From an uncultured Chloroflexia bacterium (GTDB lineage: Bacteria > Chloroflexota > Anaerolineae > B4-G1 > SLSP01): a DNA stretch of 64,000 nucleotides. The translations under genes and the position numbers were made by a program. Positions 21,650-30,125 of the stretch are shown in pieces. Position 1 is the first letter of the stretch; each line of letters starts with the position of its first letter. The stretch is from the NCBI GenBank assembly GCA_963751345.1, contig CAVVUS010000043.1, positions 1-64,000 on the forward strand, in the 5' to 3' direction. The notes under the pieces were generated by a model. The model saw only the letters and a list, made by a program, of their open reading frames with translations. It had not been told where the DNA came from and ran no database searches.

Positions 21650-21991
21650 ATGGAGATTGTGACGTACTTGATCGCTGCCGTGGTGGCCTTCTTCGGCCTG
21701 ATGTTCGTCGTCGGGTCGCAAGGGCAGATCATCCGCATCGTGGTGGGGATCATCCTTTTCGCAGCGGCCGGCGTGCTCATCTATCTGACGCGCGTCCGCC
21801 CCAAGCACGAAGAGATCACCAACGTGCAGAAGATCGATCTCACCGGTGACGTTCACCTGGAGCAGATGAAGTGCCAGTCGTGTGGGGGTGCGCTGAGCAA
21901 AGAGAATCTCGTGGTCAAGGCCGGGGCCATCTTCGTGGATTGCCCCTACTGCGGTGCCTCATACCAAATCGAAGAAGCTCCCAAGTGGTGA
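21650..21991 (+). CDS. Small two-TM protein with C-terminal zinc ribbon
   Basis: Two hydrophobic helices followed by CQSC-x17-CPYC. Confidence 0.8.
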   Translation: MEIVTYLIAAVVAFFGLMFVVGSQGQIIRIVVGIILFAAAGVLIYLTRVRPKHEEITNVQKIDLTGDVHLEQMKCQSCGGALSKENLVVKAGAIFVDCPYCGASYQIEEAPKW

Positions 21992-22047
21992 TCTGCCTGG
22001 CCCGCTCGATACAGCCCCAGGCCTGATCGAGCGGGCGTTCTTGTCTT

Positions 22048-27428: not shown

Positions 27429-29318
27429 ATGCTTAGGCGTCTTTCTCTCATAGGGTTGCTGTGCCTTGTGGTCTTGATGGGAGCAACGGCCCTCCCGCAG
27501 CCGGCGCGCGCGCAGAGTTACAGCTTTCGCGTCCCGCAACTCGATATGCAGGTCTACGTCCAGACCGACGGGTCGATCCGTATCGTCTACGATATAACTT
27601 TCGACAACCTGGGCACCGCCATCGACGTCGTCGACATCGGGCTGCCCACCAGCAACTACAACATCAAGAACATGACCGCCTCCATCGGTGGGGTCAACCT
27701 CTCCGACATCCGCCCTTCGACGTACATTGATATCGGCGTCGAGGTCCACCTGGGGAGCCAGGCGATCCCCAGCGGCGGACAGGGCACCCTGCACTTCGAG
27801 GCGACGATGCCCGACATGATCTATCAGGACACCACAAACAAGGCCAATGCCTCGCTGCGCATCACGCCCACCTGGTTCGACAGTTCAGCCGTCTCCGGCA
27901 CCAGCGACATCCGCCTTGCCATACATCTGCCCCCTGGCATCCAACCGGACCAGGTGGTCTACCAGCAAGTGCCCTTCACCAGCAAAGCGCTCTACCAGGA
28001 CCACACCGTCGTGGTCTGGGAATGGCCCAATGGCACGGCGACCAAGGCCTATCTGGTGGGCGTCTCCTTCCCTCAAGCCGGAATCTCGAACGTCATCAAG
28101 CAGTCGATCATCGATCTCACCAAAGCGTGGCTGCAGGATCATCCTGAAACCGCCGTGCTGCTGGGCGTCATCGCAACGGCGTTGGCGGCATTTCTCTTTT
28201 TCAGGTTCTCCGGCGGGACCGGATGCACAGTCTTCGCGATCCTCGGCGGCGGTCTCATCCTCCTCTTCATCGTCAGCCCGATTATGATCTTGCCGGCCAT
28301 CCCAATCCTGATTGCCCTCGTCGTGGTCAATGAGACCAAGCTGAAGAAGAAGCCCAAGGATTACCTTCCACCGATTGCCCAGGTGGAGGGAGGGGGGATC
28401 AAACGTGGGCTCACGGCCCCGGAAGCTGCGGTCCTGTTGGAGCTTCCACTGAACAAAGTCCTCACCCTGGTCTTCTTCGGCCTGCTGGAGAAAAAGGTGG
28501 TCGAACTCGTCACCCAGGATCCCCTGACGGTCAAAGTGACGGACCCGTTCAAGACCTGGGACAATCCGGACTACCGCCGGTCGAGCGACCTTCGGGACAA
28601 ACAGCGCCGCTCCGCCGCACAGGCTGCGGGCACGGTGATCCATACGTACGAATTCGGCTTCCTGGACCAATTGGAGCGGGAACCCGGGAAACCGCTTGAG
28701 AAGATAGATTTCACCAAGGCCATGGAGTCGCTGCTGAAGCGAACCGCTGCCAAGATGAAGGGCTTCGACCTCTCCGACACCCAGGAATACTATAAACGCG
28801 TGATCACGCGGGCGATGGAGCAGGCAAAGACGATGGGTGAGGTGAACGAGCGGCAGAAGTACCTGGACAAGTATCTGCCATGGGTCATGATGGATGATAC
28901 CTATCCCACGGTCCTGAACCGCCCCGGGTATAGCTACTGGCCTATATGGGCACGTCCTATGATCGGACCTGCCGTCACGGGCGGAAGATCGGGGCCGGCG
29001 GCTCCCCGTGGTGGGGGGCGATCCGCCACACCGGGCCAAACCTCAATTGGCGATGTTGCGGGCTCGTTTGCCGGATGGGCCCAGAACACAATGGGTGGGA
29101 TGGCCTCAGCAATCCTGCCCGGCGCAATGAACATCCCGGGAACAAAGGGTGGTTTCATCAATCTGAGTGGCGTCGACAAGGTAACCGGCAACGTCTTCGA
29201 GGCGTTGTCCAAAGCCTCCAGCAGTGGCGGGAAAGGCGGCGGCGGTGGTGGCGGTGGTTGTGCCTGCGCCTGCGCGGGCTGTGCCTGTGCCTGCGCGTGC
29301 GCAGGGGGAGGTCGGTGA
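27429..29318 (+). CDS. DUF2207-like membrane protein B with C-terminal Cys-Ala tail
   Basis: Intact 629-aa paralog with signal peptide (PARA-Q), about 3 TM, Gly-rich linker and CACACAGCACACACAGGGR. Confidence 0.85.
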   Translation: MLRRLSLIGLLCLVVLMGATALPQPARAQSYSFRVPQLDMQVYVQTDGSIRIVYDITFDNLGTAIDVVDIGLPTSNYNIKNMTASIGGVNLSDIRPSTYIDIGVEVHLGSQAIPSGGQGTLHFEATMPDMIYQDTTNKANASLRITPTWFDSSAVSGTSDIRLAIHLPPGIQPDQVVYQQVPFTSKALYQDHTVVVWEWPNGTATKAYLVGVSFPQAGISNVIKQSIIDLTKAWLQDHPETAVLLGVIATALAAFLFFRFSGGTGCTVFAILGGGLILLFIVSPIMILPAIPILIALVVVNETKLKKKPKDYLPPIAQVEGGGIKRGLTAPEAAVLLELPLNKVLTLVFFGLLEKKVVELVTQDPLTVKVTDPFKTWDNPDYRRSSDLRDKQRRSAAQAAGTVIHTYEFGFLDQLEREPGKPLEKIDFTKAMESLLKRTAAKMKGFDLSDTQEYYKRVITRAMEQAKTMGEVNERQKYLDKYLPWVMMDDTYPTVLNRPGYSYWPIWARPMIGPAVTGGRSGPAAPRGGGRSATPGQTSIGDVAGSFAGWAQNTMGGMASAILPGAMNIPGTKGGFINLSGVDKVTGNVFEALSKASSSGGKGGGGGGGGCACACAGCACACACAGGGR

Positions 29319-30125
29319 GCAGAGCCCAACCTTGCGATGGAGCCTCAGCAGGGTCCGCAGACTTACCCGGGCCCGAGCTGCTCGCCCGCCAGGCCGCCTG
29401 GTTGGCACCGGCTCGGGCCTATCTTTTGCGCCAGGTCCATATAGCGCGGCGCAGGTGCGTCCTCGATCTGGGCACGGGCTACGGCGCTATCGTCCCGGAG
29501 CTGGTGCGCAGGGCGGGGGGACGCATCGTGGCACTGGATCGCGAGATCAAGGCCCTGCTGAGTCCGAGGCCCATTTGAGGATGCCGGCAGAGTCGCTGCC
29601 AACAGCCGGAAGCTACCCTTCGCCGATGCCACCTTCGATCTTATCTTCACACAGTTGGCCTTGCTCTGGATGCCGCCCCTGTCGACCGTGATCGCCGAGA
29701 TATGGCGCGCCCTGATGCCTGGCGGCATGGTGGTCGCATTGGAGCCTGACTACGGGGGGATGATCGAGCATCCCCCGGACATCGCCACCCGCGATCTCTG
29801 GCTGGCTGGACTCGAACGAGCCGGCGCTGATCCCTACACAGGACGCAAGCTACCGGACGTGCTCGCCCGACAGGGGTTCGACGTGGACATCGGCCTCTTC
29901 AACACGCTTGCCGAACCTGACCCGGCGCGGTTCACCTTCCTGCGCGGGCTGCCCCTCACAGACGAGGAAGAACAACAACTCAGCCTTGCAGAACGGCACG
30001 CGGAGGCGAGATCGGGTCCCTGGTCAGAGGTGGCCCATCTGCCCTTCTTTCTCATTCGTGCGGAAAAACCAGCGGGGAGACAGTCCTGGAAAAGCCGAGG
30101 CGCCGGCGCGCGGGGTACAATGTAA
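29315..30125 (+). CDS. Class I SAM-dependent methyltransferase (frameshift near 29570)
   Basis: VLDLGTGYG, ALD, LPFADATFDLI and LMPGG. GTG start overlaps the stop of protein B. Confidence 0.8.

What the first reader, a model, noticed from the sequence alone, without database searches (positions are those of the whole stretch)
21650..30125. Candidate RiPP-like system in which radical SAM/SPASM enzymes modify Cys-Ala tails of two membrane proteins
Seen: seven co-oriented genes with short gaps or GTGA overlaps behind one promoter. They are a Zn-ribbon membrane protein, an RRE-rSAM-SPASM enzyme, a MetH reactivation domain, a cluster-less rSAM paralog, two ~600-aa membrane proteins ending in CACACAGCACACACAGGGR, and a methyltransferase. 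I saw no short precursor peptide, peptidase or exporter in the locus. Established: RRE plus SPASM rSAM enzymes (AlbA, CteB/SCIFF, PapB, QhpD) make Cys-thioether or C-C crosslinks in Cys-rich peptides, and QhpD acts on a protein subunit. Inference: the substrate is a 7-Cys tail fused to a membrane protein. The product could be a membrane-tethered modified peptide, or a metal/redox-sensing module coupled to an extracellular domain. I do not recall a characterised system with this architecture.
Basis: partly seen in the sequence, partly recalled or inferred. Interest (0 to 1): 0.92.

Follow-up and report, generated by a model that had tools for sequence, protein, structure and literature searches.

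The report
Radical-SAM cassette for Cys-Ala-tailed membrane proteins
A conserved gene cassette of uncultured, mostly anaerobic bacteria pairs an active and an inactive radical-SAM enzyme, a small zinc-ribbon membrane protein and a methyltransferase with large membrane proteins that all end in the same cysteine-alanine tail, which points to an undescribed enzyme-made modification of a whole membrane protein.

Summary
The seven co-oriented genes are real. Two of them (first membrane protein, methyltransferase) each carry a 1-base frameshift in this assembly that relatives lack.

The membrane proteins belong to a large unannotated family. In 73 tails from 65 loci the last 17 residues (CACAGCACACACAGGGR) never change, although all 73 DNA versions differ.

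In 60 of 63 loci with enough upstream DNA, a radical-SAM/SPASM gene lies directly upstream. All five genomes tested for a non-adjacent active enzyme encode it elsewhere, next to the zinc-ribbon gene.

Enzyme 1 has the full CxxxCxxC and SPASM cysteines and an RRE-like N-terminal domain; its best fold matches are SuiB and SkfB. Enzyme 2 is a paralog that has lost the radical-SAM cluster.

I found no short precursor, peptidase or exporter. The best reading is that the cytoplasmic tail is the substrate of an on-protein, RiPP-like maturation, probably thioether crosslinking. The chemistry is untested.

No paper describing this turned up in five searches. The nearest idea in print is TIGR04222 membrane-protein tails proposed as MNIO substrates.

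This scan has found the same system before on other DNA (at least 13 earlier notes).

The parts
21586..21613 (+). Sigma-70-like promoter match (TTGACG-16-TATACT) about 35 nt upstream of the first gene
   Evidence: 10 of 12 matches. This is a consensus match only. The region holds 6 such sites against 2.4 expected.
21650..21991 (+). Zn-ribbon (or rubredoxin-like) membrane protein of 113 aa. It has two N-terminal hydrophobic helices, then CxxCG...CPYCG, and a conserved C-terminus YQxEExPKW.
   Evidence: for the ORF. TIGR04104 zinc-finger model at E 2.8e-4, below its cut-off; of 48 orthologs read, 46 end in KW; present in 41 of 49 canonical loci with at least 4500 nt upstream; it stays next to rSAM1 in 5 of 5 split systems.
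22048..23568 (+). rSAM1, the active RRE-like / radical SAM / SPASM enzyme (506 aa)
   Evidence: for the Pfam matches. CxxxCxxC in 45 of 45 orthologs, the SPASM cysteines in 44-45 of 45, and an extra Cys122 in 45 of 45. AF2 model at pLDDT 82, with strands at 28-65 and three helices at 67-116. SuiB 5v1t_A, Z 27.4, model residues 30-462 aligned to chain residues 4-428.
23565..24278 (+). MetH-activation-domain-like protein (237 aa) with a C-terminal CxxCxxxxC. It is an accessory confined to one clade.
   Evidence: PF02965 at E 4.4e-5 and 23.5 bits, against a cut-off of 25; found in only 8 of 78 loci (L001-L005, L009, L034, L043).
24291..25622 (+). rSAM2, a pseudo-radical-SAM paralog (443 aa; the start may be the ATG at 24324). 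It keeps the RRE-like N-terminus but has lost the CxxxCxxC loop and retains only CxxCx5Cx3C.
   Evidence: 0 of 44 orthologs have CxxxCxxC; Cys379 and Cys387 are Arg in 44 of 44; the last four Cys are kept in 42-43 of 44; hhalign against rSAM1 gives probability 100 and E 3.5e-72 over columns 22-458.
25658..27389 (+). Membrane protein A (paralog of B), broken in this assembly by a 1-base insertion near 27036. The Cys-Ala tail is at 27330-27386, followed by the stop.
   Evidence: for the sequence. L001 lacks the extra base; one contig of a relative in run X1 lacks one base at 27035; the family profile matches 25712-27386 in pieces.
27429..29318 (+). Membrane protein B (629 aa, intact). It comprises a signal peptide, a beta-sandwich ectodomain, three membrane helices, a cytoplasmic helical domain, a disordered Gly-rich region with two short conserved helices, and the tail CACACAGCACACACAGGGR at 29259-29315.
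   Evidence: more than 1205 homologs; 120 of 120 carry the tail. AF2 model; hydropathy and charge; 73 tails with no amino-acid change and all synonymous codons in use.
29339..30125 (+). Class I SAM-dependent methyltransferase, broken in this assembly by a 1-base insertion near 29562-29573
   Evidence: for the sequence; intact in L001; 3 contigs of relatives lack a base here; intact orthologs match Methyltransf_11 at 4e-17 to 2e-21; present downstream in 45 of 61 canonical loci.

Best explanation
This is a five-part protein-maturation cassette, plus one accessory gene confined to one clade.

The active enzyme rSAM1 has an RRE-like domain, a radical SAM core and a SPASM domain. It works at the inner face of the membrane on the cytoplasmic C-terminal tail of a large membrane protein with a DUF2207-like architecture. 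That tail, (Cys-Ala)2-3-Gly-(Cys-Ala)4-Gly-Gly-Gly-Arg, plays the part of a RiPP core peptide that is never cut off. The two short conserved helices in the disordered stretch before it play the part of a leader.

The inactive paralog rSAM2 keeps the RRE-like domain and probably holds or presents the tail. The membrane-anchored Zn-ribbon protein tethers the enzyme to the membrane or feeds it electrons. The methyltransferase adds a further modification.

The most likely chemistry is radical formation of thioether links from Cys sulfur to a carbon of Ala or Gly, giving a rigid, protein-tethered crosslinked tail.

What is shown: the parts, their linkage and the invariance of the tail. What is inferred: the substrate, the topology, the roles of rSAM2, the Zn-ribbon protein and the methyltransferase, and the chemistry.

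My odds are about 0.6 that the tail is the substrate, and about 0.3 that the product is a thioether.
For: Tail invariance at the protein level:
- 120 of 120 best homologs end in the same 17 residues.
- In 73 tails from 65 loci, every position uses all its synonymous codons (six Arg codons, three stop codons). All 73 DNA versions differ and there is no amino-acid change.
- Of the 150 best 50%-identity cluster representatives, 105 have a regular (CA)n-G-(CA)m-GGG end and 13 have near variants. The other 32 lack it; those I looked at are 244-561 aa and look truncated.

Gene linkage across at least seven phylum-level labels:
- 60 of 63 canonical loci with at least 1400 nt upstream have an rSAM/SPASM gene directly upstream.
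- Of 49 loci with at least 4500 nt upstream, 35 have both paralogs, 6 only rSAM1, 7 only rSAM2 and 1 neither.
- In the 5 genomes tested without a clear adjacent rSAM1 (one has only a weak 29% match upstream), all 5 hold Zn-ribbon plus rSAM1 on another contig.

Enzyme type:
- The rSAM and SPASM cysteines are complete.
- The best fold matches are the peptide maturases SuiB (Z 27.4, alignment starting in SuiB's N-terminal domain), SkfB (Z 27.0) and CteB (Z 25.9).
- The best sequence match among solved structures is SkfB, at 1.8e-17.

No other substrate is in sight:
- No other gene family is conserved in the flanks of the 78 loci.
- The gaps between genes are too short for a hidden precursor.
- Of the 251 short tail-bearing database entries, the 12 I read are fragments or frameshifted pieces that start inside the full-length protein, plus one probably chimeric contig.

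Accessibility:
- A Lys/Arg-rich loop follows the third predicted membrane helix. This places the C-terminal half in the cytoplasm, where the enzymes are.

Tail class and enzyme class change together:
- Tails of the (CA)4-5-G-(CA)3 class sit beside a different, cysteine-poor pseudo-rSAM.
Against: - No modification was measured, and no solved or characterised relative acts on such a repeat.
- rSAM1 reaches no curated NCBIfam equivalog cut-off: its best match is 125.9 bits against a cut-off of 500.
- In a Chloroflexota sub-lineage the active rSAM1-like enzyme sits beside a tail-less relative of the membrane protein that ends in ATYYG. That enzyme is nested inside the canonical rSAM1 clade (quick tree, SH-aLRT 93-96). 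So the enzyme is tied at least as closely to the cytoplasmic domain as to the tail. In 2 of the 6 genomes that have such a tail-less relative (the L065 and L066 genomes, about 2.5 Mb each) no tail-bearing protein was found.
- Alternating Cys residues would also suit metal binding without any covalent change.
- The cytoplasmic placement rests only on hydropathy and charge. A two-helix topology would put the tail outside the cell.
- The loci were collected by similarity to the membrane protein and many are related to each other, so the counts are not independent.
Confidence: 0.6

Rival explanations
1. The tail is a metal- or iron-sulfur-binding module that is not covalently modified. The membrane protein is a sensor or scaffold. 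The radical SAM enzyme docks on its cytoplasmic domain and acts on something else, such as a small molecule, a lipid, or the conserved C-terminus of the Zn-ribbon protein.
For: - Six to eight Cys residues alternate with small residues.
- Active rSAM1-like enzymes are also paired with tail-less copies of the cytoplasmic domain.
- The Zn-ribbon protein has its own conserved C-terminus, ending KW in 46 of 48 orthologs, and it stays next to rSAM1 in 5 of 5 split systems.
- SuiB, the best fold match, makes a Lys-Trp link (that function is recalled from memory; the match itself is).
Against: - In known metal-binding Cys-x-Cys motifs the x positions vary (recalled). Here every Ala, the central Gly and the GGGR are fixed across phyla at about 30% overall identity. 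This fits recognition by an enzyme better than simple chelation.
- Both rSAM paralogs keep a peptide-binding RRE-like domain.
- In 4 of 6 genomes with a tail-less copy, a tail-bearing protein is present as well.
Confidence: 0.2
2. The enzymes modify another conserved part of the membrane protein's cytoplasmic half, for example the invariant EGGGIKRGL segment or the two short helices. The tail serves a separate purpose.
For: - The EGGGIKRGLxAPEAA motif is invariant or nearly so in 36 aligned homologs, and it is shared by the tail-less relatives that sit beside rSAM1-like enzymes.
Against: - That motif holds no residue type that SPASM peptide maturases are known to crosslink from (recalled).
- The tail-less relatives also have a conserved extreme C-terminus, ATYYG or ATF(Y/F)G, in 5 of the 6 read; L050 ends differently. 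This again points to the C-terminal end as the place of action.
Confidence: 0.1
3. The gene neighbourhood is conserved for reasons of regulation or assembly only, and the enzymes serve an unrelated pathway.
For: - Nothing direct.
- The methyltransferase is missing from 16 of 61 loci with enough downstream DNA, and the MetH-like gene from 70 of 78.
Against: - The linkage holds across Chloroflexota, Planctomycetota, Armatimonadota, Hydrogenedentota, Elusimicrobiota and others, with tight spacing.
- When the cassette splits, it splits into modules that are still found in the same genome.
Confidence: 0.05

Closest known systems
RRE-dependent radical SAM/SPASM (or twitch) peptide maturases: SuiB (streptide), SkfB, CteB (SCIFF/ranthipeptide), AlbA
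   Same: rSAM1 has the CxxxCxxC cluster, the full SPASM cysteine set and an N-terminal RRE-like domain. These enzymes are its best fold matches: SuiB Z 27.4, SkfB Z 27.0, CteB Z 25.9. SkfB is also the best sequence match among solved structures, at 1.8e-17. The presumed substrate is rich in Cys.
   Different: - The presumed substrate is the end of a roughly 600-aa integral membrane protein, not a short secreted peptide.
- No protease or exporter is present.
- An obligatory-looking inactive paralog, a membrane Zn-ribbon protein and a methyltransferase travel with the enzyme.
- rSAM1 reaches no curated family cut-off.
QhpD acting on QhpC (quinohemoprotein amine dehydrogenase small subunit)
   Same: A SPASM radical SAM enzyme makes Cys thioether links in a protein that stays part of the final assembly (recalled from memory, not tested here).
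   Different: QhpC is a small soluble subunit with Cys-to-Asp/Glu links. The NCBIfam model for QhpD (TIGR03906) is not among the 25 best of 60 matches of rSAM1. The gene context here contains no dehydrogenase genes.
TIGR04222 membrane proteins proposed as substrates of MNIO enzymes (Microb Genom 2025, PMC12452194; passages read)
   Same: It shares the idea of a RiPP-type enzyme modifying a Cys-containing, Ser/Gly-rich C-terminal tail of a bona fide membrane protein.
   Different: - The enzyme class differs: MNIO/DUF692, not radical SAM.
- Those tails are variable and of low complexity, and are predicted to be periplasmic.
- The genetic association there is loose.
- The TIGR04222 model does not match the proteins here.
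DUF2207 membrane proteins (PF09972 / PF20990)
   Same: The overall layout is the same: a signal peptide, a beta-sandwich ectodomain, membrane helices, and a C-terminal helix followed by a Gly-rich tail. I saw this in 9 Chloroflexota DUF2207 proteins. ESM Atlas lists DUF2207 clusters among the look-alikes at 0.93-0.96.
   Different: - No Pfam match at E up to 1 in 36 members.
- In the window's own genome, PF09972 gives only a 13-bit match on membrane protein B.
- hhalign gives probability 88.7 over only 66 columns.
- The 9 DUF2207 tails that I read end in Gly/Trp/Ser runs without the Cys-Ala motif.
Pseudo-SAM/SPASM proteins (NCBIfam TIGR04347, named so by NCBI)
   Same: Like them, rSAM2 is a radical-SAM-fold protein without the radical SAM cysteines. 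It has a weak match to the model, E 1e-5 and 25 bits.
   Different: The match is far below the 525-bit cut-off. rSAM2 is a close paralog of the active enzyme encoded beside it.

Membership tests
RRE-dependent radical SAM/SPASM peptide maturases (sacti-/ranthipeptide and streptide type) | CxxxCxxC radical SAM cluster motif | tested here: met
   rSAM1 and 45 of 45 orthologs have it. rSAM2 has it in 0 of 44 orthologs.
RRE-dependent radical SAM/SPASM peptide maturases (sacti-/ranthipeptide and streptide type) | C-terminal SPASM domain with its seven-cysteine set | tested here: met
   Pfam SPASM at 3.4e-11. The cysteines at positions 379, 387, 397, 440, 443, 449 and 453 are kept in 44-45 of 45 orthologs.
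RRE-dependent radical SAM/SPASM peptide maturases (sacti-/ranthipeptide and streptide type) | N-terminal RiPP recognition element (PqqD-like fold) | tested here: met
   The evidence is at the level of fold. The model has strands at 28-65 and three helices at 67-116. The SuiB alignment runs from model residue 30 to chain residue 4, so it includes SuiB's N-terminal domain. By sequence the match is only sub-threshold: PqqD PF05402 at E 0.0037 and 18 bits, against a cut-off of 23.4.
RRE-dependent radical SAM/SPASM peptide maturases (sacti-/ranthipeptide and streptide type) | A short precursor peptide (leader plus core) encoded beside the enzyme | tested here: not met
   No short conserved ORF is present and the gaps between genes are too small. 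Of the 251 short tail-bearing entries, the 12 that I read are fragments of the large protein or one probably chimeric contig.
RRE-dependent radical SAM/SPASM peptide maturases (sacti-/ranthipeptide and streptide type) | Score above the cut-off of a curated equivalog (SkfB, AlbA, StsB, PqqE, MftC and others) | tested here: not met
   All 60 NCBIfam matches are far below their cut-offs. For example, SkfB scores 80.4 against 300 and AlbA 66.7 against 850.
RRE-dependent radical SAM/SPASM peptide maturases (sacti-/ranthipeptide and streptide type) | Thioether or C-C crosslinked product | not testable with these tools
   This needs mass spectrometry or NMR of the modified protein.
DUF2207 (PF09972, PF20990) | Match to the Pfam models above the gathering score | tested here: not met
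   No match in 36 of 36 members at E up to 1. In the window's own genome PF09972 gives 13.1 bits on membrane protein B against a cut-off of 24.4, and PF20990 does not hit the locus.
DUF2207 (PF09972, PF20990) | Profile-profile homology to bona fide members | tested here: inconclusive
   hhalign of alignment A1 against 9 Chloroflexota DUF2207 proteins gives probability 88.7 and E 2.5e-6, but over only 66 columns covering the signal peptide and the first strands.
TIGR04222 domain membrane proteins | Match to the NCBIfam model | tested here: not met
   No match in hmmscan. The search of the window's own genome does not hit this locus.
ACGX-repeat system (TIGR04340 radical SAM/SPASM) | Match to the system's enzyme model above the cut-off | tested here: not met
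   Only rSAM2 matches, at E 0.0072 and 15.6 bits against a cut-off of 400.

The most novel reading that the evidence does not exclude
The matured Cys-Ala tail is a new kind of protein-derived cofactor. A radical SAM enzyme and its dead paralog build a thioether-caged or metal-thiolate redox or metal centre on the cytoplasmic end of a membrane protein. This centre couples what the outside beta-sandwich domain senses to chemistry or signalling inside the cell. The cassette would then define a widespread and so far unseen class of in-cis modified membrane proteins in anaerobic bacteria. Earlier notes of this scan say it also occurs in archaea; I did not test that.
Probability: 0.15. Interest if true: 0.92.

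Novelty: new variant of a known kind. Interest (0 to 1): 0.8.

Why it matters
Radical SAM/SPASM maturases are known almost only from small secreted peptides and a few cofactor precursors. Here the same machinery appears to be committed to the end of a full-size membrane protein, with a tail sequence fixed across many phyla. The enzyme travels with a dead paralog and a membrane zinc-ribbon protein.

If the tail is modified, this would be a new post-translational modification of membrane proteins. It would be a clear case of RiPP chemistry used for protein maturation rather than for natural products. It would also give a first handle on a protein family of more than a thousand members with no annotation.

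The hypothesis can be tested directly with a soluble fragment and mass spectrometry.

Tried and rejected
- **Complex prediction of rSAM1 with residues 530-629 of membrane protein B, three 4Fe-4S clusters and SAM.** The result was no verdict (score 0.11, mark 0.32). This is no evidence either way.
- **Sequencing runs.** No RNA holder is listed. Only DNA runs with small shares (0.05-0.17) were found, so nothing can be said on expression or habitat.
- **Stand-alone precursor.** The search for shorter proteins with the tail region gave 251 hits. Of the 12 I read, 9 are pieces that begin inside the full-length protein. Two (P0147, P0213) are such pieces that also lose the frame within the tail. One (P0240, on a 660-nt contig) has an unrelated N-terminus and is probably chimeric. 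I rejected this as evidence for a separate peptide.
- **DUF2207 and TIGR04222 membership.** Not established.
- **Fold of the ectodomain.** It resembles only the generic N-terminal beta-sandwich of M1 aminopeptidases and of the Ost1/ribophorin I subunit of the OST complex. This gives no functional lead.
- **Tail-less relatives as a refutation of the tail-substrate idea.** I rejected this after finding variant-tail proteins in the same locus (L058, L068) or elsewhere in the genome (the L050 and L061 genomes). The question stays open for the L065 and L066 genomes.
- **An apparent MetH-like/rSAM2 fusion in L034.** It is an artefact of a 100-N scaffold gap.
- **Literature.** No paper was found for the tail string, for 'DUF2207' with 'radical SAM', for 'CACACAG' with 'radical SAM' (4 primer hits), for 'SPASM' with 'Cys-Ala' (2 irrelevant papers), or for a five-term RiPP/membrane-protein query (listing only, nothing relevant).
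- **Careful tree.** The careful phylogenetic search did not finish, so only the quick tree was used.

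
Full report
**Observation**

The region holds seven genes on the + strand:
- a 113-aa protein with two hydrophobic helices and a CxxCG...CPYCG zinc ribbon (21650-21991);
- a 506-aa radical SAM/SPASM enzyme, here rSAM1 (22048-23568; Pfam Radical_SAM 2.3e-25, SPASM 3.4e-11);
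- a 237-aa protein with a weak match to the MetH activation domain (23565-24278; PF02965 at E 4.4e-5 and 23.5 bits, cut-off 25);
- a 443-aa paralog of the enzyme, here rSAM2 (24291-25622);
- two paralogous membrane proteins, A and B;
- a class I methyltransferase.

The gaps between genes are short, and rSAM1 overlaps the next gene by GTGA. A sigma-70-like site lies at 21586-21613, which is a consensus match only. Both membrane proteins end in CACACAGCACACACAGGGR.

Membrane protein A changes frame near 27036, and the methyltransferase changes frame near 29562-29573. The 90%-identical relative L001 lacks one base at each place and has both genes whole. Contigs of relatives in public runs also lack a base there: 1 contig at 27035, and 3 contigs from 3 runs at 29562 or 29567. 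The breaks are therefore assembly errors or very recent, and they are not features of the system.

**The tail**

Membrane protein B has more than 1205 homologs among the 8000 candidates scored. None has a Pfam domain on record, and the names given are mostly 'hypothetical protein' from Anaerolineae MAGs.
- All 120 best hits, at 51-72% identity, end in CACAGCACACACAGGGR.
- In 78 genome loci the same end is kept down to about 30% overall identity.
- In 73 tails from 65 loci, every position uses all its synonymous codons. All 73 DNA versions differ and there is not one amino-acid change. Selection therefore acts on the peptide, not on a DNA repeat.
- A library of 50%-identity cluster representatives holds 916 relatives at E up to 0.001, and 321 at 1e-30. 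Of the 150 best, 105 have a regular (CA)n-G-(CA)m-GGG[R/A] end, 13 have near variants and 32 have none. The tail-less entries that I looked at are 244-561 aa and look cut off.
- There are two main classes: (CA)2-3-G-(CA)4 and (CA)3-5-G-(CA)3.

**Neighbourhood**

The 78 loci are all from MAGs. They carry labels of Chloroflexota, Planctomycetota, Armatimonadota, Hydrogenedentota, Elusimicrobiota, Nitrospiraceae, Myxococcota and 'delta'. The gene order is Zn-ribbon, rSAM1, rSAM2, membrane protein, methyltransferase. The counts below are, for the 70 loci with a canonical tail.
- Of 63 loci with at least 1400 nt upstream, 60 have an rSAM/SPASM gene directly upstream on the same strand.
- Of 49 loci with at least 4500 nt upstream, 35 have both paralogs, 6 only rSAM1, 7 only rSAM2 and 1 neither. 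The Zn-ribbon gene is present in 41 of the 49.
- The methyltransferase follows in 45 of 61 loci with at least 1000 nt downstream.

I tested five genomes whose locus lacks a clear adjacent rSAM1 (L006 has only a weak 29% match upstream). All five hold a strong rSAM1 ortholog (673-747 bits) on another contig, each next to the Zn-ribbon gene. In one of them rSAM2 is there as well.

The MetH-like gene occurs in only 8 of 78 loci, all close relatives of this window. No other gene family is shared by more than 15 loci. In particular there is no peptidase, no exporter and no short ORF. The window's own genome (5.4 Mb, 49 contigs, 93% complete) has only these two copies.

These loci were collected through the membrane protein and many are related to each other, so the counts are not independent.

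**The enzymes**

rSAM1:
- It keeps CxxxCxxC in 45 of 45 orthologs and the SPASM cysteines in 44-45 of 45. It also has a conserved Cys122 in 45 of 45.
- Its AF2 model (pLDDT 82) has an N-terminal domain of strands followed by three helices.
- The best structural matches are SuiB (5v1t_A: Z 27.4, rmsd 3.5, 371 residues, model 30-462 on chain 4-428, so SuiB's N-terminal domain is included), SkfB (Z 27.0) and CteB (Z 25.9), followed by anSME and PqqE.
- By sequence the PqqD model is only sub-threshold (E 0.0037). No NCBIfam equivalog cut-off is reached.

rSAM2:
- It is a full-length paralog of rSAM1 (hhalign probability 100, E 3.5e-72, columns 22-458 including the RRE-like part).
- It has lost the loop with CxxxCxxC in 44 of 44 orthologs.
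- It has Arg in place of two SPASM cysteines in 44 of 44, and keeps only CxxCx5Cx3C.
- It is therefore not a radical SAM enzyme, but it may still bind a peptide and one cluster.
- In one locus (L075) the two paralogs form a single open frame of 902 aa with no stop and no N. I did not verify this as a true fusion.

**The membrane protein**

The AF2 model of B (pLDDT 73) shows a signal peptide, a beta-sandwich at 30-215, helices at 239-261, 266-282 and 284-307, and a helical domain at 330-487. A disordered region at 495-629 holds two short helices, 541-554 and 586-596, at conserved motifs.

Hydropathy and a Lys/Arg-rich loop after the third helix (6.7 K/R per sequence in residues 300-330) place the C-terminal half in the cytoplasm. 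This is an inference.

The ectodomain resembles only the N-terminal sandwich of M1 aminopeptidases and of Ost1/ribophorin I.

The layout recalls DUF2207, and ESM Atlas lists DUF2207 clusters as look-alikes. Membership is not established. The Chloroflexota DUF2207 proteins that I read end in Gly-rich tails without Cys-Ala.

**Other parts**

The Zn-ribbon protein is well conserved and ends in YQxEExPKW; 46 of 48 orthologs end in KW. Intact methyltransferase orthologs match Methyltransf_11 (4e-17 to 2e-21). They reach no specific family: the best is the DVU_1556 family at 77.5 bits against a cut-off of 155.

**A variant system**

In some Chloroflexota the tail is CACACACAGCACACAGGGR. The order there is Zn-ribbon, membrane protein, then a pseudo-rSAM with only 1-3 cysteines in all.

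In those genomes the active rSAM1-like enzyme (53-57% identical) sits beside a 300-340-aa tail-less relative of the membrane protein. This relative has the membrane helices and the cytoplasmic domain but no ectodomain. In 5 of the 6 read it ends in ATYYG, ATFYG or ATFFG; L050 ends differently.

These enzymes form one clade nested in the Chloroflexota rSAM1 clade (quick tree, SH-aLRT 93-96).

Of six genomes with such a relative:
- two have the variant-tail protein in the same locus (L058, L068);
- two have it on another contig with the Zn-ribbon gene and the pseudo-rSAM;
- in two genomes of about 2.5 Mb none was found.

The tail-less protein thus looks like an extra docking copy of the cytoplasmic domain rather than a replacement substrate. 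It also shows that the enzyme is tied to that domain as much as to the tail.

**Mechanism**

The reading I favour (about 0.6) is that the tail is a RiPP-like core that stays on its protein. On this reading:
- the RRE-like domains of rSAM1 and rSAM2 bind the conserved helices or the cytoplasmic domain;
- rSAM1 abstracts hydrogen from Ala or Gly carbons and joins Cys sulfur to them;
- the methyltransferase adds methyl groups;
- the Zn-ribbon protein anchors the enzyme or reduces it.

The fixed Ala, Gly and GGGR residues argue for recognition or chemistry by an enzyme rather than plain metal binding. Thioether formation (about 0.3) is suggested only by likeness to SkfB and CteB and by the Cys content.

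The rivals are a metal-binding tail with the enzyme acting elsewhere (0.2), modification of another part of the protein (0.1), and linkage without shared function (0.05).

**Comparison and novelty**

The enzyme belongs with the RRE-dependent rSAM/SPASM peptide maturases by fold and motifs. It fails the feature 'short adjacent precursor' and all curated family cut-offs.

The nearest idea in print that I found is the proposal that subsets of TIGR04222 membrane proteins, with variable Cys-containing Ser/Gly tails, are substrates of MNIO enzymes (PMC12452194, passages read). That involves another enzyme class and another protein family.

Five literature searches found no description of this tail or cassette. 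The library lacks most subscription journals.

Earlier notes of this scan describe the same system on other DNA at least 13 times, and they extend it to archaea. I did not test the archaeal claim.

I rate it a new variant of a known kind and of high interest, because one co-expression experiment with mass spectrometry would decide the main question.

Noticed in passing
window 27030-27040 and 29560-29575: There are single-base insertions relative to L001 and to contigs of relatives. They break membrane protein A and the methyltransferase in this assembly only. Two breaks within 5 kb suggest indel errors in the assembly.
   Followed up: yes
window 21950-21991; 48 orthologs in L001-L076: The Zn-ribbon membrane protein has a conserved extreme C-terminus, YQxEExPKW; 46 of 48 orthologs end in KW. 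The best fold match of rSAM1, SuiB, makes Lys-Trp links (recalled from memory). This end could therefore be a docking motif or even a second substrate.
   Followed up: partly
L050 9971-10987; L061 9932-10927; L065 4926-5933; L066 484-1065; L058 12002-13027 (-); L068 12011-12907 (-): These are tail-less 300-340-aa relatives of the membrane protein, with the membrane helices and cytoplasmic domain only. Each sits beside an active rSAM1-like enzyme where the flank is known. L061, L065, L066, L058 and L068 end in ATYYG, ATFYG or ATFFG; L050 ends differently (…YAQAWNK).
   Followed up: partly
L058 9721-10989; L068 9116-10366; L070 13092-14246; L050 11005-12183 (-): This is a second kind of pseudo-radical-SAM protein, with only 1-3 cysteines in all. 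It is found beside the variant tail class (CA)4-G-(CA)3.
   Followed up: partly
L075 831-3539: rSAM1 and rSAM2 lie in one open frame of 902 aa with no stop and no N. This is either a natural fusion of the active and inactive paralogs or a lost stop in a MAG.
   Followed up: partly
window 19220-21582: Upstream of the cassette lie an AIM24 family protein (19220-19906, -), a stand-alone homocysteine S-methyltransferase domain protein (19947-20837, -; PF02574 at 2.7e-74) and a pyruvate-kinase-C-like protein (21067-21582, +). Because a piece of a split MetH lies so near, the MetH-activation-like gene inside the cassette may belong to methionine synthase rather than to the tail system.
   Followed up: no
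L041 10001-11752: This Phycisphaeraceae-labelled MAG has an in-frame stop in the membrane protein gene, and its tail reads CACASAGCACACACAGGGR. It is the only Ala-to-Ser change seen among the 78 loci. It may be a sequencing error.
   Followed up: no
P0252 (948 aa), P0294, P0297, P0299, P0306 (766-774 aa), P0310 (838 aa): These are longer members of the family. P0252 has about 340 extra N-terminal residues, and the others show several matched stretches. I did not examine the extra parts.
   Followed up: no
window 30259-32630 (- strand): Downstream neighbours on the opposite strand are a DUF1385 protein, a molybdopterin-dehydrogenase FAD-binding subunit and a 4HBT thioesterase. They are conserved only among the closest relatives (5 loci) and are not part of the cassette.
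   Followed up: no
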